A stretch of 64,000 bases of DNA from Chiloscyllium plagiosum (taxonomy: Eukaryota): assembly GCF_004010195.1 (NCBI RefSeq), contig NC_057718.1, forward strand, positions 10,594,474 through 10,658,473. Reading direction: 5' to 3'. This document shows, piece by piece, positions 937 to 21,800 of the stretch (its first letter is position 1; each line of letters opens with the position of its first letter). Below the pieces are notes generated by a model that ran no database searches, was not told the origin of the DNA, and saw only the letters and a list, made by a program, of their open reading frames with translations. A program made the position numbers and the translations under genes.

Positions 937-1049
937 GTAAGTATCCAGGGAACTGAAATGGATCTGTTCTGGTGTTGCTTTCATTCTTTCTTCAGCCGGT
1001 CTTGCAATTTCTGAAGGCATTGTTACGTGTATGTGTGTGCACGTGTGTG

Positions 1050-1310: not shown

Positions 1311-1394
1311 CAATTCCATCTTACCACCCCATGTTTGCTTTTGCGCAAATACTGAAGTGGACCAGCTAATGATTATGCAATTGCAAGAATAGGT

Positions 1395-1975
1395 CAGAGG
1401 ATGGGAATTCTGTGGTGAGTGACTCTCAAGCCTCTCCTCCATTTACAAAGCACAAGTTGAAGTGTGATGGAATGCTATCCACTTGACTGAATGAGAGCAA
1501 CTCCCAACAATAATCAAGAAGCCCAATGCCTTCCAAGACAAAGCTGCCCAGGGCACTTGACCAGCACCCATCCACCTCTTAGACTTTCACTCCCTCCGTA
1601 CACACACATAATGGTAGTCATGTGCACTATATGGAAGTACCTTCCCGACATTGCCTCAGCAGCACCTTCCAAGTCCAGCATCTTCCCAACCTGCACCATC
1701 AACCACTGAAGAAGGTCAAATACAGCAGACACATGGAAATATTGCTACTTGTCAGTTCCCCTTCAAGGTATACAACATCCTTACTTGAAACAATATTGCT
1801 ATTCCTTATCTGTTGCTGAACCTGAACTACCAAACAGCACAGTGGATGTATTTGTACCACACAAACTGTGATGGTTTAAGAAGGTTGTACCGTGGAATAT
1901 CTTCAAGGGGAATTGGGGTTGGACACGAAATGTTCTCCTTATCAGTGACACTCTAATCCGGTAAAATAGCTTTAA
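1395..1975 (+). mobile_element. Old CR1/L2-group LINE 3' fragment
   Basis: degenerate IYKAQV...EY...AWM-like RT C-terminus; the 3' tail resembles 24950-25012 and 37005-37070. Confidence 0.55.
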
Positions 1976-2258
1976 AAATGAAAGATTTGTCTATGTTCAA
2001 ATGCTACTGAAAAAGACATGATTGCATTATTATAATAACCTTTTGAAATGAATTTCAGATTTTTAAACATTATTCATGACAGTCTGAAGTTCTGTATTTT
2101 AAGGTTAACTAGGTTAATTTAGCTAGTTTAACCATCTAAAATTATCAATTGTCATACTAAAATTAGTTAATTTAAAGGTCATCTCTAATGAAGATGCAGA
2201 ACCTTTTTAGCAATTGGAGTTGAAGACTGTGTCTACTCAGACTTGACTAATATAAAGC

Positions 2259-3363
2259 AGAGTCAAGATTAGAGTGGTGCTGGAAAAGCACAGCAGCATC
2301 CAAGGAGGAGGAAAATCAATGTTTCGGGCAAAAGCCCTTCATCAGGAATGAGGCAGGGAGCCACTTGGGTGGAGAGATAATTGGGAGGGAGGTGGGGCTG
2401 CAGGGAAGGTAGTTAAGAGTGCAGTAGGTGGATGGAGGTGGGGATGAAGGTGGTAAGTTGGAGAGGAGGGGGGAGCAGATAGCTGGAAGGAAGATGGGCA
2501 GGTCATGAGGATTGTGCTGAGCTGGCAGGTTGGAACTGGAGTAAGGTGGGTGGGAGAGGAAATGAGGAAACTTGTGAAGTCCACATTGATGCCCTGGGGT
2601 TGAAGTGTTCCGAGGCGGAAGATGAGGCATTCTTCCTCCAGGCATCAGGTAGTGAGAGAGTGGCGGTGGAGGAGGCCCAGGACCTGCATGTCCTTGATAG
2701 TGGGAGAGGGAGTTGAAATATTTGGCCACGGGGCGGCGGGGTTGATTGGTACGGGTGTCCCGGAGATGTTCCCTAAAGCGCTCTGCGAGAAGGCGTCCAG
2801 TTTCCCAATGTAAAGGTGACCACCTTGGGAGCATTGGATACAATAAATGACACTTGAGCAAGTGCAGGTGAAACTTTGGATGTGAAAGGCTCCTTTGGGT
2901 CCTTGGAGGAGTTGAGGGGGAGGTGTGGGTGCAGGTTTTGCAATTCCTGTGGTAGCAGGGGAAGGTGCCATTGTATCCGTTGCTCCCGATGCCATCTCCT
3001 TTACACTGGGGAGACTGGACACCTTCTCACAGCGCCTTAGGGAACATCTCTGGGACGCCCTCACCAATCAACCCCACCACCCCTTGGCTGTACATTTCAA
3101 CACCCCCTACCACAAGTCCTGAGCCACCTTCACTGTCACTCCCTCACCACCCAGTGCCTGGAGGAAGAATGCCTTATCTTCTGCCATGGAATACTTCAAC
3201 CCCAAGGCATCAATGTGGACTTCACCACTTTACTCATTCCTTCCCCGCCCCGCCCCAACCTTACCCCAGTTCCAACCTTCCCCCAGTTCCAACCTTCCAG
3301 CTCAGCACCATCCTTATGACCTGTCCCACCTGCCAATCTTCCTTCCCAGCTATCCGCTCCACC
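2259..3363. mobile_element. Penelope-like GIY-YIG/pLTR fragments in inverted arrangement (minus 2259-2960, plus 2965-3363)
   Basis: FTCTCSSVIYCIQCSQGGHLYIG and RLLAERFREHLRD GIY-YIG motifs; HHR-like motif on the minus strand at about 2314-2350. Confidence 0.8.
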
Positions 3364-3853
3364 NNNNNNNNNNNNNNNNNNNNNNNNNNNNNNNNNNNNN
3401 NNNNNNNNNNNNNNNNNNNNNNNNNNNNNNNNNNNNNNNNNNNNNNNNNNNNNNNNNNNNNNNNNNNNNNNNNNNNNNNNNNNNNNNNNNNNNNNNNNNN
3501 NNNNNNNNNNNNNNNNNNNNNNNNNNNNNNNNNNNNNNNNNNNNNNNNNNNNNNNNNNNNNNNNNNNNNNNNNNNNNNNNNNNNNNNNNNNNNNNNNNNN
3601 NNNNNNNNNNNNNNNNNNNNNNNNNNNNNNNNNNNNNNNNNNNNNNNNNNNNNNNNNNNNNNNNNNNNNNNNNNNNNNNNNNNNNNNNNNNNNNNNNNNN
3701 NNNNNNNNNNNNNNNNNNNNNNNNNNNNNNNNNNNNNNNNNNNNNNNNNNNNNNNNNNNNNNNNNNNNNNNNNNNNNNNNNNNNNNNNNNNNNNNNNNNN
3801 NNNNNNNNNNNNNNNNNNNNNNNNNNNNNNNNNNNNNNNNNNNNNNNNNNNNN
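3364..3853. other. Assembly gap (N run)
   Basis: run of N. Confidence 1.
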
Positions 3854-4069
3854 ACCCCTCTCCGGCCTATCACCCTCACCTTAACCTCCTTCCACCTATA
3901 GCATTCCCAACGCCCCCACCCCAAGTCCCTCCTCCCTACCTTTTATCTTAGCCCGCTTGGCACACCCTCCTCATTCGTGAAGAAAGGCTTATGCCCGAAA
4001 CGTCGATTCTCCTGCTCCTTTGATGCTGCCTGACCTGCTGTGCTTTTCCAGCAACACATTTTTCAGTTC
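3854..4069 (+). mobile_element. PLE family A pLTR fragment with a mutated HHR
   Basis: ttcgTGAAGAaaggcttatgcccGAAACGTCga; closely similar to 4523-4738. Confidence 0.8.
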
Positions 4070-4452
4070 AGATTTTTTATGCATTTTAAAATGTTTTATT
4101 ATCTTTGCATTACTATTCAAATTTATTTAGAAGGTCACATCCAGGATTAAATTAGTTAATGAAAATTTATTTTCATTACCTATAAAGTAGGAGTTTACTG
4201 GAATGATACCTGAACTTCAGGTATTAACTTATGAAAAGAGATTATATAAATTAGGCCTGTTTTCTCTTGGATTTAGAAGGGTAAGAGGTGATCTTGTGGA
4301 ATTTCTCAAAATACTAAGGCACATAGATAAAGACAAACTATTTCCATAGTTAGAATTAGGGGACACTGTCTGAGAATTAGGGTCAGACCATTCAGAAGAG
4401 ATGCTAGGAAACACTTCTGCAAACAGAAGTTTCAAAATCTATTTCACAAATG

Positions 4453-4770
4453 GGAGTCCCAACCCTCGGACTCAGCACTGCATTCTTGACCCGACTTCTT
4501 CTTCCCGACCTCTCTGCCCCCAACCCCTCTCCGGCCTATTACCCTCATCTTGACCTCCTTCCACCTATCGCATTCCCAACGCTCCACTCCCAAGTCCCTC
4601 CTCCCTACCTTTTATCTTAGCCTGCTTGGTACAACCTCCTTATTTCTGAAGAAGGGCTTATGCCCAAAACGTCGATTCTCCTACTCCTTGGATGCTGCCT
4701 GACCTGCTGCGCTTTTTCAGCAACACATTTTTCAGCTCTGATCTCCAGCATCTGCAGTCCTCACTTTCTC
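4453..4770 (+). mobile_element. PLE family A pLTR plus tail
   Basis: CTGAAGAagggcttatgcccaAAACGTC...gatctccagcatctgcagtcctcactttctc. Confidence 0.8.
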
Positions 4771-6316
4771 ATAACTGAATTAGTGGAAAACAATTAACTG
4801 TTTAAATGATATTGCGAAACTGGACAGCTTAATGCTCCCTAAAAACTAGTCCCATATGGAACTCATCCATGAAGAGTAAAAAGAAATTTAGCGAATTGAA
4901 AACCTAAGCTTCGTAGATCCAGAGGTTGCAGAGGACCAGATGGTGGCTAATGTGTTTCTTGTCCTTTTGAAAATGCTAATAGAAACGAAGAGTCTTTTCT
5001 GTGACATGCAATCTGGTTATGTGGGGGTAATTAGTTCCTTTTATAAAGAAATCTGTCCCAAAATATTGATTGTCATTTTACTTTAGTATAGAGAACACAT
5101 GCAATAGTTATATTAACGATTAAATAGTTAAATTAAACTAGTGGAAATGCACAAGTTCTGAAGGAATATTAATCAAATACTTCATTGGTGTTCTTGACAT
5201 GTTTTGCCCATCTAAATAAAGCTTCAAAAAATTTATCCATTTTTTTTTCCATTTATATATGCTATGTATTCATAGATCAAAACAAGAATGGAAGCAATGC
5301 CTAATCTCTACTTAATTTATTCAAATAATTTATCTTTCTGTCGAACAGTGAGCCATTTGCTGTCAGCATTCTGCTTCATTATATATTTCCCCCTTTCATG
5401 ATTTCCCTTCTGTCCAAGTAGAATGAGCTTAAGATTCCAGAAGGTATCTTTTTAATGACCTTGGATGATATTTTCAAGCTGTCTGTCATTTTTTTTGATA
5501 TCTGCTTTGACTTTGTGATTTGTGCTACAGTACAATGTAATCAGCCCAATAGATAATTCTTTGAAATGCTTCCAGAAACAATTTCAGAGCATTAATTTAA
5601 TCTAAACAATGTGCAATTTTGAATCATGTAACATTTTTGATTGTCCAGCACACTTAAGTTGGAAAGATCATCCATCTGTTAGGACAAAAATTGTTTGCCT
5701 TCTCCAAAAGTAATTGGGGTCTGCAAAATCCATTTCTAATTGTTCACTTTGAATATTTTGTTTGATTTAGTTTCTTTCCAATGTACCTATTCAGAATTAG
5801 GTTTTTTTTTGTATCTGATAGGTGCAATGTAATTTGGGGTTCTTTGGTAACACCATTGTACTGAATATTAGCACAATATAGAAATGCAAGTTGTTTTGTT
5901 CAGTTCCTGATGCGTATGGAGTGAATTGCTGTCTGGAGACCGCTTGTGGTACCTCCAAGAAGGTGTGAAAATTAACCAGTTGTAGTTGGGTAGTCCTCAA
6001 CTTTTCCTTAAGAAGCAATTGTGAGTATTGGTTGGAGCCTGGAAGTGGCCAGCTGCTTGGTTGGTGAACTTGTTAAACCACCTGATGGCAGAGCAGCATC
6101 AAATTTGTGAAAATTGAAATATTTTGAAACATATTTAAATGGTTTAGAAATTATGAATACTGTACATCTTTCCCCCATTGAACTAAATGTATATTTTTTG
6201 TCTTTAATTGTACAAATGTTATTCTGTTGAGTAAAACTTTAATTTAGTAAAATGCTATACATGTCTAAAGAAACTGCCAGTTTGCTCAGTTTACTGAATA
6301 CTGTTTTATTTATCAG

Positions 6317-6411
6317 CTACCTCCACTCTTGTGATCCTCCAATAATCCATGGAAACCTGACTTGTGACACCATATTCATCCAGCATAATGGTCTCATAAA
6401 AATTGGATCTG
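6317..6411 (+). CDS. NRBP1: NRBP1 exon (YLHSCDPPIIHGNLTCDTIFIQHNGLIKIGS), 95 nt
   Basis: tatcag|CTAC...TCTG|gtaagt; degenerate catalytic loop (HGN instead of HRD) and no DFG, typical of the NRBP pseudokinase. Confidence 0.97.
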
Positions 6412-8109
6412 GTAAGTATAAGAAAACCATTTATTGATATGTGTTGAACATGTATAGCAAAATAAAAGTTTATTTAAAAACCTGAAATTGATTTGGCCCA
6501 TCAGGCTATTTTTTAAACTCAAATTTACAGGTCACTATATTGAAGTTAACGGATTAACAACATTATAATGAAAAATTATCAAAGCAATTTTTCACAAGTG
6601 CACTTAACAGTTGTCGCAATTGTGCAACAACAGCATGAGTGTGTCATAGACACACTAACAGCACTTAGCCCCTTCATATTTTGAGCATACGTTGATGGAT
6701 GGATGGACAGTTCAATGGCTGCTTTTGCTGTTTCTACCTTCAGTGTTGTATACTTGAAATTTACACAGGTGCATTCAATATTTGAGAAGATCGTCAGAGG
6801 CCGTTTTGTGTGAGCCAAATCAATGTCAGCAGACAATTTTATGAAGAGAGGACATTATGAAGTGTTCACTCCTGCTTCAACTTGGTCATGACACTTTGTG
6901 CTGTTGTCTTTACTCAATTAACCTAGCACAAACCTGGAGTTGAACTGAACATCTTTGTTGTCCATGTGGGGCTGTATGTATTACAGCTGCTCAGAGAAGA
7001 TGCTAATTTGGATCTACTTGCAAGTCTGCATTTTAAGGATCTGCATTTCTTTCTTGAGCTTTATTTTGGTTACTTAAAACTTGATGTGAGAGGTTTTCTT
7101 TTTCCCCTCCTGCCTGTACTGAATGTCTATTCAAATATCTGTTTCTTAACTTCTCCACAGCAGTTGTTTTAAATGGAGATCGCAAGTCGTCTGAAATGCA
7201 TTTTTTTTGCATAATTTAAGTCACTTTGCATATTGGTGGTAAGCCATGTGCTTAGAGCAGAAGAGAAGGAAAAAATGAATTAGCTATGATGGAGAGTGGG
7301 CATTTGCAGCAAAAGTCATGATATGACTAATTTTAGGTTAATGTCAAAGTGACCTTTTGTGAGGATAATTACTGATTCTTTGCTATATTTTATATGTACA
7401 GTTCAATCAGGACATCATTATAATGGGAGTGAGTGAAAATGGTGCATTGCATTTTATGCATGGCTCAATTATGCATTTGTGCATGTTCCTTCAGATTGCC
7501 CAAGACCTTGAGGGAAAATCATAATATTGTCCATTTTAAACATCAAAGTTAGTAATGCAAACAGTTCACTTTTCATGGCCCAGCTTATGTTTTAAACATT
7601 GCTCAAAGTTTTCTACATGGTAACTGCAGTGTGTACTTTTCAACTGTCTGGCTTGTTGACTGAAGTGCATTGCCATGTGCCTCTTTACCTAATACATGGT
7701 TTTGCAAACTTTGTTTTTCATTGGGAATTTCACTTTCTTGTGCAGAATTATAGCCTAAATCTTAACCATTTAAATATTTAAGAAAGGTCAGATGGCACCT
7801 TGTTGCATAGGCATCTCTTGTTTTTCCTCCAATAAATTTCATTTGTTCAGGTTCAAAAATAAAATCAAATGCTTAAACAAGTGTGTGCCATTTTTTGAAC
7901 AGAAAACAACGGATTGACCATCTCTAGGATCTGATACTGTTACAGTCAGCATGTATTAGATAGGTGTAGCTTTTGCATAGCCCCCTGCATTAGCAAGTAC
8001 TTTTGCTCTTAAGATCATATATTGTGAGCCTTCAAGTCTTGACTCCTGAACACGGCTGATATGCAAGTTGCTGTAGTTCATGTGTCCAGAGGCTTGGGCG
8101 TGACACAGG

Positions 8110-9290
8110 AACTAGGAATAGGAATAGACTGTTCAACCGTCAGGTCCACTCTGCCATTCACAGAGTTCATTGCTGTTCTTCTGTTTCTATGTCATTTTAT
8201 CATAACATCCTTTCATCTCATGATTTTTATAAGAGGAAATTTATCAAGCTGTCCCTTGAAGATATGCTGATTTGAATTTCCACAAACCTCTTGGTGACAG
8301 GGGTTTGAAGGTCACCCCTTTCTGAGAGGAAAGTCCACTTCACCTCAGTACGAATTGGTCCACTCTTTCATTTGACACCATGTCCTCTGATACTAGGCAT
8401 TCCAATCATGGGAAACATCCTTCTTGTATCTGCCCTTTTGAGGCCTGGAAGAACTTGGTATGCTTTTGTGAGGTCATGCCTAATTTTTATATACTCTCAA
8501 ATGTAGACCTCGTCTCCTACGCCTCTCCTCAAGGATAATCCTGTCATCTCTGGCGTAAGTCTGATGAACCATTGTAACACTGTGTGGCAGGAATATTCTT
8601 TCTTGAGTAAAGAGGAAAACTATACACCATACTTCAAGTGCAGTCTCTCGAAAGCTTTTTACGTTTGCAGCAAAACTTCTTTGTTTTTACGCTCAAATCC
8701 AGTCACGGTAATGGCCAGCATAAAATCTGCCTCCCTAATTGCTTGCTGCACATAAACTTTATCAGTTCCCAATCTTTCACCACTTAATAAATTGCCAACT
8801 CAGCCAGTTTAAATTCCCCTGAAGCTGCTTTGCATCCTCCTCCAACTTTCCTTCCAATCTCGTCTTGTGGCATCAGCAAACTCAGATCTTTATATTTGGT
8901 ACTTGCATCAAATCATTGATATAGAGTATGAACAGATGGGACCAAAACATTGATCCTTAAGGTATCCCCTACTTGAAGCCTGTTTTTTGTCCATTAGCCA
9001 ATTTTTAATTTACCTAAATATTTTACCCTATCTTGTGTGCTCACATTTGCTTTTAATCTCTTGTGTGGCATGTTATTGAAATCCTTCAGAAAATAGAAAC
9101 AAATTGTATCCATTCATTTCCCTTGTGTGTTCTGCTCGTTACACTCAAAAAGAAATCTCAGCAGGTTTTGTCGGACATGGTTTCTCTTTTTATAAATCCA
9201 TGTTGGTTTTGTTAATCAGATCTTTATTTTCTAAATATCTAGTTATTATATGGTTTAATATACACATCCCCAGTATTTTGCCTGTGGGAT
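8110..9290 (-). mobile_element. Degraded CR1 LINE 3' portion
   Basis: aggaataggaatag tail and RT-like remnants on the minus strand. Confidence 0.6.
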
Positions 9291-10655
9291 TTGACTCTGC
9301 TTGCACCTGGCAGTTCAACCCAAGGAGAATAATTTCTTACACCGCTTTCACCCTAAAGCAAGTCTGCTTGATCAAATTCAAAAACACTGTCGTGGCTTTG
9401 AGGGGGCATGGTTGGTGTTGGAAAGAAACTGAAATTTGTGTCAGCTGTTCCTTTTGAATCCCATCATTGTGCTTTAAAGAAGATAAAACTAATACAAACT
9501 ATGACTAAACATCTTTTTCTAAGTTATAACCTTGAATGTTTGGAAGTATTATTTAAATATAGCTTTTGTTGTATCTTTGCACCATCTTCATGCTCCAAAT
9601 ATAGGCATGGTCATTATTGTGCATTATTCTTTGAATTACTAGATCACTTGCCTTTCAAAGGAGCAGTAGAATCATAACTGTTTATTTGACTTTTTTTTTT
9701 ATTTTTGCGTGGTGCATGCATATACACATTGACATAAGAACGTGTTTTAAAGAATCTTCATTTGTTTAATGCATGTCGTCGTCAGACTTCAGTCTAATCA
9801 GTATGTTTGCCTCAGTATGTGAGGTGGTTTTCTCTCATCTTTTTCATTTGTGCATCATTACCGAGATTGTAACATTTATAACTATATCACTTAAATTGAG
9901 ACATGATGGTTTGATAAGTAGAAGATTCAATAAGTCATAGGAAATAAGGGCAGTGAAGGAGTAAGGAATTCTACAGTAGTGATAGCAAATACAGTGTCAA
10001 TGTGGATAGCAGTTATGAAGCTGTTTTTAAGTAAAAATGAACAGACTCAGTTTTGTATAGCAAAAGAGGCTGGAGGTGAGAATTTCATGTTCAGACAAGT
10101 TCATTGTTCAAGGATGCGTAACCTTGCTCTGCTTTTTTTTTCTTGACAAGTCTTCATAGCAAATGCTACTGCCAGAATTTACATCCTCATTTCTGTATTA
10201 TATTTAATTTGTGCCTACCAGCTTCAGATTGCTATCATAAGGAGACTTAATCTTGGTATCTCCCCGTCAAGACACGTTAAATCTTTTGTTTCAATAATCT
10301 AACCTCCTATTCTTCTATACTCCAATGATTGAGCACACTGAGCTTACAATCTTTCCTCCTAAGTCAACCCCTTCCACCCAGGAATCAAATTACTGAGCCT
10401 TCTGAACTTCCTCAAAAGCAAGTAGATTCTTCTTTTAGATTAGAAAGTCAGTCTTATATTGCACTATTGATGACAGTTTCACCAATGGCTTGGACATTTG
10501 CAGCAAGATTTCCTTACTTTTATACTCCATGCCTTTTGCAATAAAACCTGACCTTTTATTTGCCTTCCTAATTGCAACTAGTACCTCCATGTTGAAGTTG
10601 AAACTTTATTGCTGGAACAGCACAGCAGGTCAGGCAGCATCCAGGGAACTGGAGA

Positions 10656-10689
10656 TTCGACGTTTCGGGCACAGGCCCTTCTTCAGGAA
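10656..10689 (-). ncRNA. Minimal hammerhead motif, antisense arm
   Basis: minus strand reads TTC-CTGAAGA-A-GGGC/CTGT/GCCC-GAAA-CG-TC-GAA. Confidence 0.8.
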
Positions 10690-10700
10690 GGGCCTGAAGA

Positions 10701-10740
10701 AGATTCCTGAAGAAGGGCCTATGCCCGAAACGTCGAATCT
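10701..10740 (+). ncRNA. Intact minimal type I hammerhead motif
   Basis: AGATTC-CTGAAGA-A-GGGC/CTAT/GCCC-GAAA-CG-TC-GAATCT; 6-bp stem I; predicted cleavage after C10734. Confidence 0.85.
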
Positions 10741-10992
10741 CCTGTTCCCTGGATGCTGCCTGACCTGCTGTGCTGTTCCAGCAATAAAGTTTCAACTTTG
10801 ATCTCCAGCATCTGCAGACCTCACTTTCTCCTCCATGTTGAACTTCATGATTCATCTACAAAATCTGACATTGTTGTGCAACATTTTACAGTCTGTCTTC
10901 ATTTTAAATAGTATGTTGTTCTTTCATTATTTCTACCATAGTGATCAAGATCGCATTTTCCCATGTTGTTCTCATCTGCCAAATTTTTACAA

Positions 10993-11119
10993 CTTCACCT
11001 GATGAAGGAGCAGCGTTCCGAAAGCTTGTGATTTCAAGTAAACCTGTTGGACTATAACCTGGTGTCATGTGACTTCTAACTTTGTCCACCCTGGTCCAAC
11101 ACCAGCACCTCTGCATCAT
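10993..11119 (+). mobile_element. PLE family B pLTR end with an intact HHR at 10995-11031
   Basis: TCAC-CTGATGA-A-GGAGC/AGC/GTTCC-GAAA-GC-TT-GTGA; related copies at 17241 and 41477. Confidence 0.8.
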
Positions 11120-13181
11120 TTCATTCAGATCATTAATGTAGTCAACAATGAGGCTTCAGCACTGTAACACTCCTCTTGTTATAGTTTGTGAACCTCAAGA
11201 TGACCCATTTATCTGCTGTTGCGTGTGCAGCTGCAAAATTTGGACATTCCACATGCCAGTACTTTGACTTCCAGTTCCAGGAACTGGTACTGCACACAGA
11301 CCTCAGGTCTGTGCACTAGCAGGAATAGATAGGAAAGATAGGTTTCCTGTTGTTTAGTCCATCCTCTTTCCATGCTAAACTAATACCCCAGCAACATGAC
11401 CTCTTATCTTAGAAACCTTTTGTATGATAACTTTTTAATATACCACATCCCCTGGTATCCTTTTTATCTATCCTGCTTGTTAAGAACATGAATCAAACTG
11501 TTAAACGTGGTTTATCTTTTGTACAGTGTTAACAGGATGATTAGAAATTCATAAAATCATATCATAACTATAATGAAACATTTCAGCATTTGCAAATAAC
11601 AGGCTAACTGACCTATAGGTTCTACATTTACAATTTTATATTCTGCTGTGACACTTCCAGAAGCTTTGAAACTTTAGAACTTTACAACCAGTCTACCCCC
11701 TATCACTGCAGACATATATTTGAAGAATGTAGACTATCAAGTGTAGGAGACTTTTGGTCTTTATTCCATTTTAGTTTTCTTGGTGCATTTTTCTCTGATG
11801 TGTTTTAAGTTCTTCTTTATCTTTTGATTTTCCTACTATTCTTGGGGAAAGACAGAAGACATTCTGTGTAGACAGATGCAAAATTCTTGTTTGAAGTCTG
11901 GAGTATTTACTTAGTCATAGTCATGCAACATAAAAGAGGCCCTTTGGCCCATCATTGATCAATCTACACTAACAACTTTGCAGCACGTGGCCCATAGCCT
12001 TCAATGTTATGACCTTCCAAGTGCTTTTCCATATATTTATTTACGTTTTTGAGATTTCCTGCCTGTATTGCCCTCCCAGGCAGTGTGTTCCACATCTCCC
12101 CCCCCCCCCTCAGTCAAAAAGATTTCCTCCAATTTCCTCTAAGCCGCCTTCCCTTTACCCTAAAATTATGCTCCTTAATCACCACATTAATGTATCATGT
12201 TGCCTCCAGGGATCTGAGGGTAAGCATTCCAAAATCTGAGTATTCCTTTAAGCTTCCTAATGTACTGCCATTCATCAAGTAATCCATTGCCTTGTTACTT
12301 CTTCCAAAGTTCACCACCTCATGCTTATCAGGGTTGAATTGCTTGCTCCTGATCTGCCCATCTCACAAACGTCTATTTTTATTGACGTAGCTCCAACAAC
12401 GCAAGCATGGACTCTCTCCAGGACAAAGCAGCTTGCTTAATTGACGCCACGTCCACAGACAGCTACTCCCTCCACCACAAGATGCACTGCAGAAATTTAC
12501 CAAAGCTTCATAGACAACACCTTCCAAACCCATGAACATTTCCAACTAGAAAGATAAATGCAGCCAATACATGGGAACACCACCTTTTGCAAGATCCCCT
12601 CCAAGCCACTCACCACCCTGATTTGGAAATATAATGTCAGTACTTAACTGTTTGAGGTCACAGGGCCATAGAGTCATACAGCACAGAAACATGCCTTTCA
12701 ACCCAACTTGTCCATGCAGACCAGGTTTCCTACACTGAACTACTCCTATTTGCCTGCATTTGGCCCATATTCCCCTCAACTCTTCTTATCATATGCCTGT
12801 CCAAATGTCTTTCAAACGTTGCAATTGTGTAAGCCTCCACCACTTCCACTAGAATCTTGTTTCATAAACACTATCTCATGTGAAAAAGTTGCCCCTCAGG
12901 TCCCTTTTTTAAAATCTTTTCCCCTCTCACCTTAAACCTATGCCCTCTAGTTTTGGACTTTTCTACTTTTGCGGAAAAGACCATCTCAGTTTACCTTATC
13001 TATGCACCTCCATGATTTTTTAAGTTCACCCCTCAGCCTCCTATGCTCCAGGGAAAAAAAAGTCTTAGCCTATCCAGCCTTTTTAACTGAAACCTTCCAG
13101 TCTCACTAATATCCCTGTAAATCTTCACTCCCTTTCCAGTTTAATAACATCATTCCTCTAGCAGGGCAACAAGCATAGTAC

Positions 13182-13909
13182 AGTCACAAAGCTGGTCCCT
13201 TTGTTTTCTAAAAATTGTTCCTTTTCTTAAGGATACTTTGTTCTTGTCCTTTTTTCAAAGGGGTCATAAACAGCTCCGGTTTAGATTAGACTGGTTTGGT
13301 ACAGAGATTAAGGGGTTTTGAGAGGCCTTTTTGATTATATGTAAATAGATGAGACGTCAGGCCAAAGTGGTCATGTTTTAGAAGTGACCTGTATAAAGAA
13401 GGGCTCGTGCCCGAAACGTCGATTTTCCTGCTCCTTGGATGCTGCCTGACCTGCTGCGCTTTTCCAGCAACACATTTTCACCTCTGATCTCCAACATCTG
13501 CAGTCCTCACTTTCTCAGCGGAGTAGTTCAGTCCAGAACTAGTTAGAAATTCAACTATGTGGAAACAGGTTCTCTCTCTCTCTCCTTCTGCCCTTCTAAC
13601 TTCAACCTGTTGCATTGTTACTGTTTTTTTTAAGGGGGTTTGCTTATTGGGACTGTTGTGTATATATTCAGAACTGCATAATTAAGTCTAAGTTGGATAG
13701 ACTGAGTTCTGTGGGGATTCTTTATTCTGTCCTTTGTGTTTCATTGTATATGTGTGAATAAATTTTTGTCTGTTCTAAAACCTGGTAGTTTACCTGGAGT
13801 AAGTTGGCTACGTTTATGTTCACTATATACTTAGCGAAACAAATTGCCAACTTATGGTTTGGGCTGCCTGCTTAAGAATGTTTTGAGAGGTCTGGCTTAG
13901 TCAGTAACA
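13182..13909 (+). mobile_element. Probable solo LTR (Gypsy-like) inside CR1
   Basis: ends aGTCAC...GTAACA; flanks gtac/gtat; TATA-like gtataaag at 13391; AATAAA at about 13757; CR1 resumes after 13909. Confidence 0.55.
13398..13516 (+). mobile_element. PLE family A pLTR end plus tail inserted in the LTR
   Basis: gaagggctcgtgcccGAAACGTCga...ctcactttctc. Confidence 0.85.
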
Positions 13910-16900
13910 GTATGCAATATTCCAAATGTGGCCTTACCAACTTCTTGTATAGCTGTAACGTGACATTCTAACTGCTTTGATTAATGAAGGCAAGCGTGCC
14001 AAATACTACTTCAGTCTGTCTACCTGTGACACCACTTTCAAGGAACTATATAGCTGCATCCCTAGGTGTCCCCAGAGCCCTAACATTAACTGTGTAGGTC
14101 CTGTTTTGGCTTGTCTTACCAGAAGACAATATCCTGCATTTATCCAAATTAAACGCCATCTGCCATTTCTCAGCTCACTGGCCCAGTTGTTCAAGATCCC
14201 GCTATACTCTTAGAAAACCTTCTGTACTGTCTGCTATGGTACCAATTTTGGTGTCATTTACCAACTTATTAACTATGCAGCCTATATTCTTGTCCTTGGA
14301 GATGCATTGACTCCCTCCTTCAGGATTTTCTCCAATAGTTTGTCAATCACTTGTCAGACTCACTTGTCTATAGCTCCTTGGTTTACCCCTGTCACACTGT
14401 TAAAGTGGAACCACAGTAGCTATCCTCCAGCCCTCTGGCAGCTCCCCTTGGCCAGCCAGGAATGTAAAATTTTGGGTTAGAGCCTCTAATTTCCTCCCTT
14501 GTCTTCCAAAGCGAGCTGGGGTTTTGTCCACTTTGAAATCTGCCAAAGCCTCCAATGTCTTCCCATTCTCTCATTCCGTTGAAGAACATCTTAGTCCATC
14601 TTCCTACTTCTATACCTACATCCTGCATCTAAGTGAAGACCAGTAAAGTACTGAAGTCTTATTATTGTCCTCTGATTTCACACGTAGACACCTCAGTGGT
14701 CCCAAATGGGCACTACTTATTCCCTAATTATTCTCTTCTCCTTTACAGGATATCATGGGATTCTCCTTAATTTTACCCACCAGTGTTTCTTCATGTCCCT
14801 CTTTGTCTCCTAATTGCTTTCTTAAGATTCCCCTTGCACCTTCTGTACTCTTTTAGATCCTCTGTTCACTTGCTCCCTTTGTACCTATTAAAAGCCTCTC
14901 TCTTCCTTCTTACCCAATCCTAAATGTTCATAGACAGCCAGAGTTCTCTGGGCTTGTTGCTCCAACATTTCACCCTAAAGGGAGCATGTTGGACCTGTAC
15001 ATTCCCCATTTCCTTTTTGATCACCCCGGCTATTCTATTGTAGATTTACTCCGAAGCAGGAAGTCCGCCCCCACCACTTAACCCACCCACGTAAGTCCAA
15101 AACCTTTTCTGTAGGCTATCTCTTTCCTTGAACATAATGGGGCTGTTAACATGGTCACAAAAATGCTTACCGATTTTGTCACATTGTCTTAAATGCCACC
15201 TTAACCACCTGCTAAATTAGAACCAGAATTGTCTCCCTTGTTGGACCTTCTGGGTGTAACATAACATAAAACCCTGCAGAATACAGTTCAAGAAATCTAT
15301 CCTCTCTCAACCCTTACGCTATGACTACCCCAATTAATGTGTGGAAAGTGGAAGTCCCCTAATATAATGTCCCTAATGTTATTGTCACACATCAGTGAAT
15401 TATCTGCATATATGTCCCCTGCTGACTGTTTGACAATATCACTGTCCCCTTTTTATTCCTAAGCTCTACCCACAAAGCTTCATTTGAGGACCCTCCCAAG
15501 GTATCATCTCTCGCTACTGCAATAACTGACTCATTAATTAATAATGCAATATCACCAACACTGTCTTGTCTGAAGACCCTAATATAATTTTGAGTTGTCA
15601 GTCCTGCCCATCTGTCAACCACGTCTGTGTTGGCAGCAATGTCTCCATTCCACATATTAATCTGCGTCCTTAACTCATCTGTCTTCTCTATAATACTCCT
15701 AATATTAAGGTAGAGGCTGTCCAATCTCTCCTTATTCCCTTGAATCACAGCAAGGCTGAATTCCCTGCATTCTTGTTACTTTATTATGCTGCATCCCTAT
15801 TAGAGTCCCTTGCCCTTAATAAACTAATTTAAACTCCTCCCAACAGCATTGATAAATCTACCCACAAGGATGATGGTTCCATTCTGGTTCAAATGCAGAC
15901 CATCGCACTTGCACAAGTCCCAACATTCCCAGAAACAATCCCAGTGAGCCAGAAATCTAAAATACTCTTGAGTCACACATTCAATTGCATTATTCTCCAT
16001 TCTCCATTTGTTTTTCATTGTTAATTCATCAGTCTCGTTTTCTATGTGACCGTTGCTTACTTTGGCTACTTACTTTCTTTATCATATTTGTAGAAGCACA
16101 AACTGTGTGTTTGTTACTTTTTGCCAGATTTCTCTTACTCATTTGGGTGGACACATTAGAATATTTTTCCCAGTCTTCTGGTTATCTAATAATCTTCACC
16201 GTATTGTGGTTTCTTAGTTAATTTGATGTCATTCTTCATTAGCTGTACATGTTTTGTCTTTCTCATATAGTCTTAAATTATGAAACATCTCTCCTTAAAT
16301 TTCTAATCCTGTTTACATAACACATTTCCTTACCAATTTTTCTTTTTTTTTTCCCAGTCTGCTTTAGCTATCTCATTTTGGATTTCTTTTGTTAAAATTG
16401 AAGGTGCTCAATTCAGGCCCATGTTTCTTGCACTCAGACCCCATGTGAAATTTTTCCTGTTATGATCACTATTACCTAGAGGATTGTTCGCTATGAGATT
16501 TTAGATTTTAATCCTGAATCAATGAATATGACAGATCTCAAAAAGCAGTTCTCATGTCATACTTAACATGACATGATATGATTACAGCTGTATCACAAAA
16601 ATTAACCTCAGCAGCCTGCACACCAAAGACCAGTACAAAAGATAATCAGATAAATTTTACTTTCCCCTATTTTCACTTTACTAAATGGTTGTTTATTCTG
16701 GTAAAAATGGATAGGAATTTAGGGATAGATGTTGCAGTTCTAGATTTGGAACTAGATTTATTAATATGGGCAGGATATAAATACACTCAACCTCCTTTAA
16801 CATGAGCAATAATGTAGTTGCTGCTTTGAATACCATGACAATGTTTTGAAGGAATTAAGTAAAGGGATTGTTGTGTTTACAGGGAAATTAGGATACAAAT

Positions 16901-17240
16901 ATACACATGTTGAATAGCATTATGAACAAATGAGTACTGACCAGTTTTGATCATGACACTTCAGAAAGAATATATGTGCTTTTTAGAGGGGACAGACCAC
17001 CATGCCTTTTGCTTCAGGGCCTATGGATAACAGTAGTGTTTGAGTGTAGTTTGTTGACTACTTTTCTGGGCTGTTGCAGTCTTGGTGAAGACACTCCAAA
17101 CCAGTACCAGATGAGAAATTTTGAGCCATCTGACTTTTGGTCCATCGATTTATATCAAATTTATAGAATGTTTCCAAATGCAATTTGTAACTTTGAATTG
17201 GAAAATGACAGTTGTTTAACATTTTGTTCTTTCTCTGTTT

Positions 17241-17443
17241 ATGATGTGGAGGTGCTGGTGTTGGACTAGAGTGTTCAAAGTCAGAATCCACAGGACACCA
17301 GGTTATAGTCCAACAGATTTATTTGAAATTGCAAGCTTTCCCTCGTCAAGTGGACTTCACCTGATGAAGGAGCAATGCTCCAAAAGCTTGTGATTTCAAA
17401 TAAATCTGTTGAACTATAACCTGGTGTCCTGTGAATTTGACTT
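17241..17443. mobile_element. Fold-back PLE family B mini-element
   Basis: long minus arm with tail at 17241-17353; short plus arm at 17355-17443 with an HHR whose GAAA is mutated to AAAA. Confidence 0.8.
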
Positions 17444-18019
17444 GCTTTTTTTTTAATGCTAGCAGTTGCAATGGTGAGCCTCATAACTGAGTTACTGTTA
17501 CTGTGTACTGCAGCAGTTTGGTTATACTGGTTACATTGTCGTCATTAAGCTAGATATTTTAAAATTCCAGGTTATTATTGAATCCATAGTTCTTCGTGTG
17601 TAAACAAGAGAATTTGTTAAGAATGAGACTTAACCAGTGGTAGTCATCCTCTTGCTGCATTGACATGGAACTGTTAAGCTTTCACAGCATCTAGTTTTTG
17701 TTTTCTTGTTTGCTTGGTAGCTTTTAAAGTTTTCTCACTTGTGTAAAACTAGTTCTAGCATTTATTTAACTTGTATTTTTATCCTCTGTCTCACTATCTG
17801 GTATACTTAGTCTGTGCCTTGTATTCATCAGTGCGCTTGGGACAGAATAAATTAAACTGGATTGTAACAATGAGTTACACAAATGATTTGAGAATATTTG
17901 TTGTGTTTCTGGAATTAGGATACAGATGGTGAAGTTAACATCAATTGTGCAGGGAGCAACAGGCTTGTTTGATCATAGTTTTTCACCATTGAAATAATGC
18001 CCGTAACACACAGAGACTT

Positions 18020-18712
18020 GGAGGTATTTGCACACAAAATGCAAAGCTGGCACACGTGCAGCAGGTAATCAGGAAGGCATTGGAATGTTGGTTCTTCTTT
18101 CAAGGAGCGCAAGAATAGGAAAGTCTTACTGCACCTGCACTAGGTGCTGCTGAGATATCGTGGTGCACTTAGAGCAGTTTTGATCCCCTTATTTTAGTAA
18201 ATATCTCATTTCATTGGAAGCACATCTGAGAAACCTCACCAGGATGATCCCTGGTCTGGATGGATTGTCTTATGAACTAAGGTTGAACATGTTGGGACTC
18301 CACTCATTGGAATTTAGAAGAATGAGAGTTGATTTCATTGAAACATATGGGATTTTTAAGAGGTTTGACAGGGTAAGTGCTAAGAGACTGTTTCCCCTGT
18401 TGGGAAGGTCTAGGATCAGAGATCATAGGCTCAAATTGGCACCTTAAACTTATTTGAAGGCTGAAATGAGGAATTTCTTCTGAGGGTTGAGAGTCTTTGG
18501 AACTCCTTACTGCAGAGAACTGTGGGGTCTGAACCCTTGTATATATTTAAGACTGAGATTCTTGATCAGTCGACAAATCATGGATTGTGGGGTAGACGCA
18601 GGAAGGTGAATGTGAGGGCTATCGGATCAGCCATGATTCTGTTGAATGGGGGTGCAGGCGCAAGAGGCTGAATGGCCAGCTCCTTTTCCTGTTTCTAATG
18701 GTCTTATATGGC
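18020..18712 (+). mobile_element. CR1 LINE 3' fragment
   Basis: TRMIPGLDGLSYELRLNMLGLHSLEFRRMRVDFIETY. Confidence 0.85.
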
Positions 18713-18849
18713 TTTTCTTGTCTTCGAGCTGAATTCCAGAGGTGAGGTGTGAAGTGACTTTGCTTGACTGAGCCTGGCATATGGGCATCAAGCAAAATTG
18801 AAGCTATTGGCAATTGGGTCAAGATGTCTATTGGCTGAAGACCTATATC

Positions 18850-21800
18850 ATGGAGTCACGCAGCATGAAACAGACCCATTGGTCCAAATCGTCCGTACCA
18901 ACCAAGTTTCCCAAACTAAACTGGTCCCACTTGGCTGCAATTGATCCATATCCCTGTAAACCTTTCCTATTCATGTATCTATCCAAATGTCTTTTAAATG
19001 TTGTAACAAAGAACAAAGAAAATTACAGCACAGGAACAGACCTTTCAGTCCTCAAAGCCTGTGCCAATCCAGACCATTTATCTAAACCTGTAGCTTATTT
19101 TCCAAGAATCTGTATCCTTTGGCTCCCTGCCCATTCATGTATCATGTACTCAATACCTTGTCCGATGACTGAAAGCATGCCGTATGCCTTGTTGACCACT
19201 CTGTCGATCTGCCTTGCCACCTTCAGGGTACAATGGACCTAAACACTCAAATCCCTCTGTACATCAAATTTCCCCAGGGCTTTTCTATTTACCATATAAT
19301 TTGCTATTGAATTGGATCTTCTAAAATGCGTCTACTCTGTCTCCTATTGCTCAGCTAGTTCTTTATCCATCTAGCTAATACACCCTAGACCCCATGCAAC
19401 TTCACTTTCTCCATCAGCCTACCATGGGGAACCTTATCAAAAGCCTTTGTGAACTCCATGTATATGACATCTACAGCCCTTCCCTCATCAATCAATTTTT
19501 TCACTTCCTCAAAGAATTCTATTAAGGTGGTAAGACGTGACCTTCCTGGCACAAAACCATGTTTCCTATCACTGATAAGCCCATTTTCTCCCAAATGTAA
19601 ATAGATTTTATCCTTCAGTATCTTCTCCAGCAGCTTCCCTACCACAGATGTCAGGCCCACCAGTCTATATTATCTGGATTATCCCTGCTGCCCTTCTGAA
19701 CGAAGAGGACAATATTAGCAATTCTGCAGCCCTCTGGGATCTCTTTCATGTTCAAGTATGCTGCAAAGATATCTGTTAAGGCCCCAGCTCTTTCCTGTCT
19801 CGCTTCCCTTAGTAACCTGGGATAGGCCCCATCTGGACCTGGAGATTTGTCCACCTTGATGCCTTTTGGAATACCCAATGCTTCCTCCCTTCTTAAGCCG
19901 ACTTGATCTAGAGTAATCAAACATCTATTCCTAACTTCAGCATCCATCGTGTCCCACTCCTTGGTGAATACTGAACCAAAGTACTTATGTAAGAATCTCA
20001 TCCGTTATCTCTGACTCTACGTATAACTTCCCTCCTTTATCCTTGAGTGGGCCTGTCCTTTCTCTGGTTACTTTCTATTACTCTCTCGCTCCTTATATAT
20101 GAATAAAAAGCTTTGGGATTTTCCTTAACCCTGTTTGCTAAAGATATTTCATGACCCCTTTAAGCACTCTTAATTCCTCATTTAAGATTGGTCCTACTTT
20201 CCCGATATTCTTCCAAAGCTTTGTCTGTTTTCAGTTACCTGGACCTTTTTATGTATGCTTCTTTTTTCTTCTTAGTCTCACAATTTGCATCTACCACTTT
20301 CTCTGGCAGTTCATTTTTACATACGAACCACCGTCTGGAGGAGGTTGCCCCTTGAGTCCCTTTTAAATCTTTTTCCTCTCACCTTAAAATATGCCCTCTA
20401 GTTTGAACTCCCCTACACTAGGGAAAAGACATTTGCTATTCTCTTTATCTAGGCCCTTCATGATCTTATAAATCTCTATAAGATCTTCGCTCAACCTCCA
20501 ATGCTTTAGTTAAATTAGTCTCATCTTATCTCTTATAATTCTAACCCTCTCCAATTTAATAATATCCTTCCTTAGCCCAGTGACCAGAACTGTAGACTGT
20601 ATTCCAATAATGGCTTCACCAATGTCCTGTACAACCTCAACATGATGTCCCAACTGCAATGGTCTGAGCAATGAAGGCAAGCATGTTTTGCGAGTTTTAA
20701 GATTTGTAGCTCAGGTTGAGGTTCTGGATGTACGTTTGCTCGCTGAGCGGGAATGTTCATTTCCAGTCGTTTCGTCACCTAACTAGGTAATATCTTCAGT
20801 GAGCCTCCGGGCGAAGCACTGTTGATAATTCCTGCTTTCTATTTATATGTTTGGGTTTCTTTAGGTTGGTGACACCATTTCCTGTGGCGATGCCATTTCC
20901 TGTTCTTTCTTGGGGGGTGGTAGATGGGGTCTAACTCTGTGTTTGACGATAGAGTTCCAGTTGGAATGCCTTGCTTCTAGGAATTCTCATGCATGTCTCT
21001 GTTTCGCTCATCCTAGGATGGATGTGTTGTCCCAGTCAAAGTGGTGTCCTTCCTTATCTGCATGTAAGGATACTAGTGAGAGAGGGTCATGTCATTTTGT
21101 GGCTAGTTGATGTTCATGTATCCTGGTGGCTAGTTTTCTGCTTGTTTGTCCAATGTAGTGTTTGTCACAGTCCTTGCATGGTATTTTGTAAATGACATTA
21201 GTTATGCTAGTTGTCTGTATAGAATCTTTCAAGTTCATTAGCTGCTGTTTTAGTGTGTTTGTGGGCAACCGTGATGCCAAAGAGTCTGAGTAGTCTGGCA
21301 GTCATTTTAGCATGCTAAATACCTTAATTACCCTGTCTACATGTGACACAATTTTCAAAGAGCTATGTACCTGAACCCCTTAGATCTCTCTGTTAAACAA
21401 CACTTCCCAGGGGCCTACTATTAACTGTATAAGTCTTGCCCTTGTTCGTTTTACCAAGATGTTAAACTCCATCTGGCACATCTCAGCCCATTGGCCCAAT
21501 TGATCAAGATCTCTTTGTAATATTAGATAACCACCTTCACGTCCACTGTAGCACCAAGTTTGGTATTATCCGCACACTTACTAACTATGCTTTCTATATT
21601 CTCATCTGAATTGTTTATATAAATGACGGTGCACCTAGTACCGATCCCGGTGGAACACAGCTGTTACAGGCCTATGATCCAAAAAGCAACCTTCCACCTC
21701 CACCCTTTGTCTCTTACTATTAAACAGTTTTTTGCATCTAATTGGCAAGCTCTGAGTCTCTTGTGATCTAACTTTCCTGATCAGTGTATGATTTGGAATC

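What the first reader, a model, noticed from the sequence alone, without database searches (positions are those of the whole stretch)
10584..10842. 233-bp palindromic double-hammerhead mini-retroelement with a perfect 13-bp TSD
Seen: a non-coding insert flanked by cctccatgttgaa. It has two near-perfectly complementary arms of about 93 bp, each with an intact hammerhead core (plus 10701-10740 with a 6-bp stem I, minus 10656-10689). Only one arm carries the roughly 30-nt tail gatctccagcatctgcagacctcactttctc. Known: PLE pseudo-LTRs carry minimal HHRs whose palindromic stem III (here A-C-G-U, no loop) requires dimerisation, and inverted 5' pLTRs occur in Penelope. Inference: this is a MITE-sized, ribozyme-bearing fold-back product of PLE retrotransposition, possibly a non-autonomous family. 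In the NRBP1 pre-mRNA the antisense arm would sequester the sense ribozyme in a long hairpin.
Basis: partly seen in the sequence, partly recalled or inferred. Interest (0 to 1): 0.85.

Follow-up and report, generated by a model that had tools for sequence, protein, structure and literature searches.

The report
One-off fold-back Penelope-element mini-insertion
This 233-bp palindrome with two hammerhead ribozyme motifs is a real but ordinary by-product of a Penelope-like retrotransposon that copied its short end piece into both strands of one cut site; it is not a small mobile element in its own right.

Summary
There is a perfect 13-bp target-site duplication, two 95-nt arms that are 98% complementary, a minimal-hammerhead core in each arm, and a ~33-nt tail on one arm only.

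The arm is the 3' end of a very young, very abundant Penelope-like element (PLE) family in this 3.56-Gb genome:
- 23,701 arm ends, 13,084 of them with a tail.
- A GIY-YIG endonuclease ORF lies upstream in longer copies.

The palindrome is not a self-propagating family:
- The window's central junction occurs once in the genome.
- 41 fold-backs carry 37 different centres.
- Each has its own 9-17-bp duplication.
- Single arms, longer copies and partial tandems share the same 3' end.

This is the published PLE insertion signature: an inverted 5'-truncated copy with a tail at one end.

Regularities seen in passing:
- Only 2.3% of tailed fold-backs carry a tail on both arms.
- 5' ends pile up at the hammerhead's 5' edge.
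- One 198-copy lineage carries host-like upstream sequence along.

Ribozyme activity and the NRBP1 context remain untested.

The parts
10584..10596 (.). Left copy of the 13-bp target-site duplication CCTCCATGTTGAA
   Evidence: 37 of 42 other fold-backs have their own exact 9-17-bp duplication.
10597..10689 (-). Antisense arm. It is the PLE 3'-terminal arm read backwards. It starts exactly at the pre-tail boundary (GTTGAAAC) and ends near the 5' edge of the hammerhead. The min-hammerhead core lies at 10659-10686 on the minus strand.
   Evidence: The outer end falls at the same boundary in 13 of 20 sampled fold-backs and within 7 nt of it in 5 more.
10690..10703 (.). Central junction filler between the arms. 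It is made of short re-copied bits of the hammerhead region.
   Evidence: The 44-mer spanning it is unique in the genome, and 37 of 41 centres elsewhere differ.
10704..10796 (+). Sense arm, running from the hammerhead 5' edge to the proximal reverse-transcription start boundary (GTTTCAAC).
10701..10740 (+). Plus-strand minimal hammerhead motif: helix I AGAUUC/GAAUCU, CUGAAGA box, extra A, 4-bp helix II, GAAA box, palindromic ACGU in place of helix III, predicted cut after C10734.
   Evidence: The features match the min-HHR description of Cervera & de la Pena 2014. No Rfam hit. Activity not tested.
10797..10829 (+). PLE 'tail', present on this arm only. In read-through copies it continues into the start of the next unit.
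   Evidence: 13,084 arm-end-plus-tail sites in the genome. The tail is on both arms in only 35 of 1,520 tailed fold-backs.
10830..10842 (.). Right copy of the target-site duplication. Its first 4 nt (CCTC) also match what follows the tail in read-through copies, so they are priming microhomology.

Best explanation
The element is a single dead-on-arrival integration product of an autonomous Penelope-like element (RT plus GIY-YIG endonuclease), not a mobile unit.

Shown:
- It consists of two copies of the PLE's 3'-terminal ~95-nt arm (minimal hammerhead plus about 60 nt downstream) joined head to head.
- One 13-bp target-site duplication brackets the whole structure.
- The tail is on one arm only.
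- The centre occurs nowhere else in the genome.

Inferred mechanism, following Frangieh et al. 2024:
1. The endonuclease makes nicks staggered by about 13 bp.
2. Both 3' ends prime reverse transcription on PLE RNA at the two adjacent internal start sites. One strand starts at the proximal site (no tail) and the other at the distal site (tail).
3. Both cDNAs run about 95-125 nt to a common end at the 5' edge of the hammerhead.
4. They are joined through short template switches, which leaves a junction that is different in every event.

Why both cDNAs stop at that edge is open. [quoted passage not shown]

At this locus the hammerheads are passengers. If the locus is transcribed, the 95-bp hairpin sequesters them.
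For: Family context:
- 3,178 first-look candidates were found. All 40 scored are full length at 92-100% identity.
- 23,701 arm ends, 13,084 with a tail and 793 reading through the tail. Reversed-pattern controls gave 0.

De novo formation:
- The window's centre is unique.
- 37 distinct centres in 41 fold-backs.
- An exact private duplication of 9-17 bp, mode 14, in 37 of 42 fold-backs.
- In 40 position-ordered sites, 20 are fold-backs and 20 are single arms, deeper truncations, longer copies or partial tandems sharing the same 3' end.

Orientation: among the first 100 arm ends there are 24 head-to-head neighbour pairs, 0 tail-to-tail and 1 same-strand. This rules out chance nesting.

PLE identity:
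- GIY-YIG PF01541 scores 25.7 and 25.3 bits (cut-off 22.6). One hit is in a copy that continues upstream of the same hammerhead end; the other is in the sequence flanking another copy.
- Partial tandems (pseudo-LTR logic) occur in 12 read-through loci.
- The min-HHR features are met.

Literature:
- The purified PLE protein nicks and extends both strands, and the tail is the stretch between the two RT start sites (Frangieh 2024, main text).
- 'Dual min-HHRs ... ~100-700 bp ... in opposite strands' (Cervera & de la Pena 2014).

Asymmetry and end point:
- 1,555 matches for a fold-back with a tail on one side, against 35 loci with tails on both. That is 2.3%, where 38% would be expected if each arm took a tail independently at p=0.55.
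- Sense arms begin within a 13-nt window at the hammerhead's 5' edge in 24 of 40 sites.
Against: - The RT domain of the parent was never seen. The upstream parts of long copies read N in 4 of the 12 read-through loci, so PLE identity rests on the GIY-YIG hit, the architecture and the ribozyme.
- The GIY-YIG-bearing copy (L062) departs from my ruler copy upstream of ruler position 164. It may carry an internal deletion or belong to a close sister lineage.
- Frangieh et al. saw no difference in start-site use between top and bottom strands in vitro. That does not predict the one-tail rule, so the step 'one strand proximal, the other distal' is my inference.
- A snap-back of one cDNA on itself, rather than two primed cDNAs, is not excluded.
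- One fold-back junction does recur 198 times, so inherited junctions exist. There they are part of a longer retro-copied RNA.
- Counts come from exact or near-exact word searches, which the tool calls lower bounds.
- The 40-site sample lies on one contig and holds only perfect 42-mers.
Confidence: 0.85

Rival explanations
1. One reading: a MITE-sized palindromic, ribozyme-bearing non-autonomous family that is itself transcribed and retro-copied as a unit.
For: - All 40 scored genome hits cover the whole 233-nt query at 92-100% identity.
- A different fold-back junction is present 198 times, so RNAs that contain a fold-back can be templates.
Against: - The high scores come from the shared arms. 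The centres differ (37 kinds in 41) and the window's centre is unique.
- Arm depth varies, and some right arms are far shorter than the left (L046, L055, L070).
- The 198-copy lineage is not a fold-back unit. 8 of 10 loci share at least 577 to at least 1,716 nt up to the tail end, including AT-rich non-coding sequence left of the palindrome, with graded 5' truncation and unrelated right flanks.
Confidence: 0.04
2. Snap-back origin. A single cDNA primed at the distal site reached the template's end, folded back on itself and copied itself. The second arm would then be self-templated rather than primed from the other DNA strand.
For: - Junction fillers are re-copied bits of the adjacent arm in the opposite sense (for example L003, L006, L020).
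- This would explain why only one arm has a tail, if self-copying stops before the tail.
Against: - Nothing obvious would stop self-copying exactly at the pre-tail boundary, as seen in 13 of 20 fold-backs and within 7 nt in 5 more. That boundary is a known RT start site (Frangieh 2024).
- The protein extends both strands in vitro.
- Fold-backs whose inverted arm is longer than the tailed arm (L046, L055, L070) fit two independent cDNAs better.
Confidence: 0.09
3. Two independent insertions, one landing by chance head to head beside the other, or a DNA-level Foldback/MITE transposon.
For: - PLE copies do land in PLE copies (L040, L044).
- The structure is a terminal inverted repeat with a duplication.
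Against: - 24 head-to-head pairs against 0 tail-to-tail.
- One duplication brackets the whole structure and there is none inside.
- Duplication length varies from 9 to 17 bp.
- The ends are asymmetric, with a tail on one side.
- There is a graded series of 5' truncations.
Confidence: 0.02

Closest known systems
Canonical PLE insertion architecture (Penelope/Poseidon/Neptune, Naiad): 5'-truncated copy, adjacent inverted 5'-truncated copy, 30-40-bp tail at one end. Craig et al. 2021 MBE, PMC8557442 (passages read).
   Same: - Inverted 5'-truncated copy abutting a direct copy.
- Tail on one side only.
- Variable duplication length.
- Hammerhead in the repeated terminal part.
- Partial tandems elsewhere in the genome.
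   Different: Here both copies are cut down to about 95 nt, so the whole insert is only 233 bp. The paper describes the arrangement around full or long copies and gives no frequencies.
PAc (Poseidon of the green anole) reconstituted in vitro. Frangieh et al. 2024 Mob DNA, PMC11167929 (abstract and main text read).
   Same: - The hammerhead sits just upstream of two adjacent internal RT start sites, and the tail is the stretch between them.
- Both DNA strands are nicked and extended.
- Here the predicted cut site lies 62 nt before the proximal boundary and 95 nt before the distal one. In PAc the cut is at +26 and the start at +111-118.
   Different: - In vitro, start-site use did not differ between strands. 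In this genome the fold-backs almost always pair one proximal with one distal start.
- The species and family differ, and the protein was not seen here.
Minimal hammerheads of metazoan PLEs. Cervera & de la Pena 2014 MBE, PMC4209133 (parts 1-2 of 4 read).
   Same: - Catalytic boxes.
[quoted passage not shown]
- G10.1-C11.1 pair.
- Palindromic 15.2-16.2 with no loop III.
- Short helix I.
- 'Dual min-HHRs ... in opposite strands' 100-700 bp apart were already noted there and put down to truncated PLEs.
   Different: - Helix II is 4 bp here; the paper reports it as often longer.
- The copies are nearly identical, like the D. virilis case in that paper, rather than highly variable.
LINE-1 twin priming (5' inversions).
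   Same: Both strands of a staggered break prime reverse transcription, giving an inverted 5' part inside one duplication.
   Different: In twin priming the two parts are different segments of one RNA. Here both arms copy the same segment, and both start at defined internal sites rather than at a poly(A) or at random microhomology.
Retrozymes: non-autonomous hammerhead elements that propagate via circRNA. PMC4918200 (search listing and start of abstract only).
   Same: A small non-coding retro-copied unit carrying hammerheads.
   Different: - Retrozymes have direct repeats, and their RNA ends lie at the ribozyme cut sites.
- Here the repeats are inverted and the ends lie at RT start sites and at the hammerhead's 5' edge.
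- Only 2 of 40 sampled copies begin near the cut site (L035, L057).

Membership tests
Penelope-like element (insertion product) | GIY-YIG endonuclease encoded upstream of the terminal repeat | tested here: met
   PF01541 scores 25.7 bits (cut-off 22.6) in L062, about 140 nt upstream of the hammerhead edge of the same copy, and 25.3 bits in L040. L062 differs from the ruler copy upstream of ruler position 164, so it may be a deleted copy or a close sister.
Penelope-like element (insertion product) | Telomerase-like reverse transcriptase in the same ORF | not testable with these tools
   The upstream parts of long copies read N in 4 of the 12 read-through loci. I fetched no further sequence upstream of the others and saw no RT of this family.
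Penelope-like element (insertion product) | 30-40-bp tail at only one end of the insertion | tested here: met
   A 33-nt tail at 10797-10829 only. Genome-wide, 35 of 1,520 tailed fold-backs have it on both ends.
Penelope-like element (insertion product) | Inverted 5'-truncated copy adjacent to a direct copy; partial tandems (pseudo-LTRs) | tested here: met
   Inverted copy: window and 20 of 40 sampled sites. Partial tandems: 12 read-through loci.
Penelope-like element (insertion product) | Target-site duplication of variable length | tested here: met
   13 bp here. 9-17 bp in 37 of 42 fold-backs. One copy has about 90 bp (L093).
Minimal hammerhead ribozyme of PLEs | CUGANGA and GAAA boxes, GUC cleavage triplet, extra nucleotide between 9 and 10.1, G10.1-C11.1, palindromic 15.2-16.2, short helix I | tested here: met
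   All were read directly in both arms. The isolated plus arm folds into helix I plus helix II.
Minimal hammerhead ribozyme of PLEs | Self-cleavage (as a dimer or protein-assisted) | not testable with these tools
   RNA reads show no pile-up of ends at the cut site, but the library is fragmented poly(A) single-cell RNA and so not informative.
Rfam hammerhead families | Match to a curated covariance model | tested here: not met
   0 matches at gathering score in the window. None of the 14 matches at E<=10 in 10500-10900 is a hammerhead. This is expected for motifs without helix III.
Self-propagating fold-back / MITE-like non-autonomous family | Copies share the whole unit, including its centre and both ends | tested here: not met
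   The window's centre is unique. 37 centres in 41 copies. Arm depths vary.
Retrozyme | Direct repeats with hammerheads; unit ends at the cleavage sites; circRNA | tested here: not met
   The repeats are inverted and the ends are not at the cut site. circRNA was not testable.

The most novel reading that the evidence does not exclude
The thousands of near-identical mini-insertions of this family may be an in vivo record of how PLEs integrate.

1. Integration would be a concerted two-strand reaction by one (dimeric) RNP. The two DNA ends would use the two adjacent RT start sites asymmetrically, one proximal and one distal. That would explain why a fold-back almost never has two tails (2.3% against 38% expected).
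2. Reverse transcription would often begin at the start site nearest the RNA's 5' end and run off after about 95-125 nt, like a 'strong-stop' product. That would explain why 60% of copies begin at the hammerhead's 5' edge.
3. The same site in a read-through host transcript would drive 5' transduction, as in the 198-copy lineage that carries over 1.2 kb of host-like sequence.
Probability: 0.35. Interest if true: 0.55.

Novelty: new member of a known kind. Interest (0 to 1): 0.3.

Why it matters
For the window it matters little. This is one of thousands of inert PLE by-products, and any effect on the host transcript is that of a generic 95-bp intronic hairpin.

For PLE biology the family is a useful natural data set. 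PLE integration is still poorly understood. Craig et al. 2021 call the tandem/inverted structures the result of 'still undefined features' of the cycle, and the first in vitro system dates from 2024.

A burst this young leaves unblurred junctions, tails and duplications, with almost all 42-mers perfect. Rules such as 'one tail per fold-back' and 'ends at the hammerhead edge' can therefore be counted and then tested at the bench.

In the held library I found no paper stating these rules. Subscription journals and supplements were not seen.

Tried and rejected
- Rfam, at gathering score over the whole window and at E<=10 over 10500-10900: no hammerhead family. The best hit was a plant miRNA hairpin model at 51.7 bits against a gathering score of 99, so spurious as a miRNA.
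- RNA evidence: no RNA holder was listed by the run finder.
  - I laid 4 runs on a parent-like stretch. One raw RNA run gave 0 reads.
  - The other gave 382 reads in both orientations, 92% running on into unrelated flanks. Depth was about 200 over the arm against 1-3 over the start of the next unit, and there was no place where molecules begin or end.
  - This looks like passive transcription of dispersed copies. It says nothing for or against cleavage or a transcription start.
  - The two contig runs are only guessed to be RNA.
- NRBP1: a Pfam scan of 150 of the 470 ORFs of 48 aa or more (window 1-19,776) found no kinase domain. I did not scan the other 320.
- Earlier findings of this scan: none on record for this genome.
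Shorter ones worked.
- Pfam on the EN-like ORF remnants of the older family in the window (2316-3363) gave no hit. Their EN-like nature is my reading of the translation only.
- A retrozyme/circRNA origin and a chance double insertion were considered and rejected; see the rival explanations.

Full report
**The object.**
- A perfect 13-bp direct repeat (CCTCCATGTTGAA) brackets a 233-bp insert.
- Two arms of 95 nt are 98% complementary, with 14 nt between them.
- A ~33-nt extension (10797-10829) follows the right arm only.
- Each arm carries the word CUGAAGA-A-GGGC(loop)GCCC-GAAA-C-GUC, exact on the plus strand at 10707-10734 and with one loop mismatch on the minus strand at 10659-10686.
- The window holds 5 matches to this word at up to 3 mismatches, where shuffles give 0.
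- As RNA the insert is one long hairpin of -190.7 kcal/mol (z = -23 against 200 shuffles).
- The plus arm on its own folds into helix I (6 bp) plus helix II (4 bp).

No Rfam hammerhead model matches, even at E<=10. The motif does meet every sequence criterion that Cervera & de la Pena (2014; parts 1-2 read) give for the helix-III-less 'min-HHR' of PLEs. [quoted passage not shown]

**It is one of thousands.** The window lies in a 3.56-Gb assembly.
- The 233-nt insert found 3,178 first-look candidates. All 40 that were scored cover the full length at 92-100% identity.
- Exact-word counts, each with a reversed-pattern control of 0:
  - 23,701 arm ends (30-mer, up to 1 mismatch).
  - 13,084 arm ends followed by the tail (42-mer, up to 2 mismatches).
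  - 793 sites where the tail reads on into further shared sequence.
- The first 100 listed sites of each search are perfect matches in position order. The density of perfect 42-mers on contig 1 implies that nearly all 13,084 are perfect, so the burst is very recent.

**What the copies look like.** I aligned the 30 best-scoring loci (29 distinct; L028 repeats L005). I also read an unselected set, the first 40 tail-bearing sites on contig 1. I measured those against one natural long copy, L033, used as a ruler. On the ruler the hammerhead 5' edge is at 203, the cut comes after 234, the arm ends at 296 and the tail ends at 330.

Of the 40 sites:
- 20 are head-to-head fold-backs. Two of these have long arms, and one (L040) is atypical.
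- 20 are not fold-backs. They are single arms, deeper truncations, four copies that continue upstream into shared sequence, and one partial tandem.

Every class ends in the same arm and tail. Sense arms begin within ruler positions 199-211 in 24 of 40 sites, further upstream in 6 and deeper in 10.

The inverted arm's outer end sits at the pre-tail boundary (296-297) in 13 of 20 fold-backs and within 7 nt of it in 5 more. None carries a full tail.

That is the result.
- The 44-nt word across the window's centre occurs once in the genome.
- Among the 41 sampled fold-backs that retain both flanking anchors there are 37 different centres. The four that recur are the shortest and simplest.
- The fillers are short re-copied pieces of the neighbouring hammerhead region, as expected from template switching.
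- 37 of 42 fold-backs have their own exact duplication of 9-17 bp, mode 14. The five without one include a locus cut by N, and the strict search missed imperfect repeats.
- Among the first 100 arm ends, 24 neighbour pairs are head to head, none is tail to tail and one is on the same strand. The pairs therefore arise in one event, not by chance nesting.

**The parent is a Penelope-like element.**
- Longer copies extend upstream of the hammerhead into shared sequence.
- In one of them (L062) an ORF piece about 140 nt upstream of the hammerhead edge matches the GIY-YIG catalytic domain above Pfam's threshold (25.7 bits, cut-off 22.6).
- A second, near-identical piece lies beside another copy (L040).
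- Read-through copies show that the tail continues into the start of the next unit. They form partial tandems with variable internal junctions, which is the pseudo-LTR logic of PLEs.
- I could not see the RT. The upstream parts of long copies read N in 4 of the 12 read-through loci, and I did not fetch further upstream at the others.

Craig et al. [quoted passage not shown] Cervera & de la Pena already noted dual min-HHRs on opposite strands 100-700 bp apart.

**Mechanism.** Frangieh et al. 2024 (main text) showed for an anole PLE that:
- the protein nicks and extends both DNA strands;
- reverse transcription starts at two adjacent internal sites of the RNA;
- the tail is the stretch between those sites;
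- the hammerhead lies just upstream of them;
- ribozyme mutants still insert in vitro.

The window element fits this directly. Two cDNAs are primed from the two ends of a 13-bp staggered cut, one from the proximal site and one from the distal site, and they are joined where they meet. Those steps are inferred, not shown here.

The right duplication copy begins with CCTC, which is also what follows the tail in read-through copies. That suggests 4 nt of priming microhomology.

**Regularities that go beyond the published description.**

1. *One tail per fold-back.* A gapped pattern for near-full-length fold-backs with at least 7 nt of tail on one side matches 1,555 times. The pattern with tail on both sides matches 35 loci. 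So 1,485 fold-backs have one tail and 35 (2.3%) have two. If arms took tails independently at the overall rate of 0.55 (13,084 of 23,701), 38% would have two. In the position-ordered list, 21 of 24 pairs have exactly one perfect tail, 3 have none and 0 have two. One of the three 'none' pairs does appear, so it has an imperfect tail. Of the 50 unpaired arm ends, 29 have a tail.

2. *5' ends at the hammerhead's 5' edge.* 60% of copies begin there, and only 2 of 40 begin near the predicted cut site. Ribozyme cleavage therefore does not define the template's end.

3. *A recurring junction.* One long-armed fold-back junction recurs 198 times.
   - In 8 of 10 loci the identity continues leftwards through AT-rich sequence with no ORF over 76 aa.
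   - The shared stretch runs 577, 805, 807, 855, 1,425 and at least 1,716 nt (the last in two loci).
   - The right flanks are unrelated.
   - In one copy the tail runs 10 nt further into the next unit.
   - This looks like repeated retro-copying of a read-through RNA from one source locus, started at the tail site and carrying upstream host-like sequence along.
   - It shows that the arm-plus-tail region works as an initiation site inside a foreign RNA, and that reverse transcription can pass the hammerhead edge when RNA continues upstream.

Together these suggest, without proving, the reading given under the most novel case.

**RNA and host context.**
- The run finder listed no RNA holder.
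- Laying two raw single-cell poly(A) RNA runs and two contig sets on a parent-like stretch gave reads in both orientations. Of these, 92% ran on into unrelated flanks.
- Depth tracked genomic copy number (about 200 over the arm against 1-3 over the next unit's start), and there were no discrete ends. That fits passive transcription of scattered copies and is uninformative about cleavage.
- I could not confirm that the locus is an NRBP1 intron. No kinase domain was found in the 150 of 470 ORFs scanned.

**Verdict.** It is a one-off, dead-on-arrival insertion product of a known kind, not a MITE-like family. The family-wide counts may interest people who work on PLE integration.

Noticed in passing
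window about 2260-4073 (an N run lies inside): An older, larger example of the same architecture. Inverted repeats at 81-87% lie between 2496-2788 and 3025-3326, with EN-like ORF remnants on both strands (by eye; no Pfam hit). A decayed hammerhead sits at about 2316-2350 (-), and a hammerhead-bearing end at 3854-4073 (+).
   Followed up: partly
window 41853-41944 (-), duplications at 41945-41956 and 41841-41852: A 92-nt single-arm mini-insertion of a sister family. It begins at the hammerhead's 5' edge and ends at the pre-tail boundary without a tail, and it is flanked by a 12-bp duplication, CAGACAAGAGGT. Its GAAA box has mutated to AAAA.
   Followed up: partly
window 3854-4073 and 4523-4742: Two direct copies (90%) of a sister-family pseudo-LTR end, only the second with a tail. 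They flank about 370 nt that by eye encode the C-terminal part of a CR1-like LINE ORF2.
   Followed up: no
L084-L091 (G000 C1, eight loci): A 198-copy lineage in which a fixed long-armed fold-back plus over 1.2 kb of AT-rich, ORF-poor upstream sequence was retro-copied with graded 5' truncation. This looks like 5' transduction from one read-through source locus.
   Followed up: partly
L071-L073, L082; also G000 C8:24157645-24158518 and C2:96929343-96929793 (coordinates): Head-to-tail arrays of 151-224-bp units, each with a hammerhead, made by template jumps between the start of the next unit and the pseudo-LTR end. Two hammerheads about 200 nt apart on one RNA are the arrangement in which dimeric min-HHRs could cut out a small RNA, as in retrozymes. 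circRNA was not checked.
   Followed up: no
L080:1555 (laid reads); window 10783-10788: 30 RNA reads replace the tail with a poly-T-rich loose end right at the arm end (agreement 0.62). The arm carries AATAAA 8 nt before that boundary. The arm may therefore act as a polyadenylation site in some transcripts, or the reads may come from one expressed locus.
   Followed up: no
window 10656-10737, Rfam RF03987: The consensus of the plant MIR6136 hairpin model aligns arm for arm with the paired hammerhead halves (GUUUCGG...CCGAAAC; 51.7 bits, below the gathering score of 99). That miRNA family may itself derive from an inverted pair of hammerhead repeats.
   Followed up: no
L093 (G000 C1:144012054-144015093): A 5'-truncated copy of the 198-copy lineage is flanked by an unusually long duplication of roughly 90 bp, with 2 mismatches.
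   Followed up: no
window 19388-19669 (-): An ORF fragment matches RVT_1 (33.3 bits, cut-off 29.6). It is an unrelated retroelement remnant.
   Followed up: no
L044, L046, L048, L055 (ruler positions 259-264): A second, minor cluster of sense-arm 5' ends (4 of 40) lies about 35 nt before the arm end. It is unexplained.
   Followed up: no
Near-identical sequence is held by runs under four different coded organism labels (A-D), so the family is shared by close relatives or the labels overlap.
   Followed up: no
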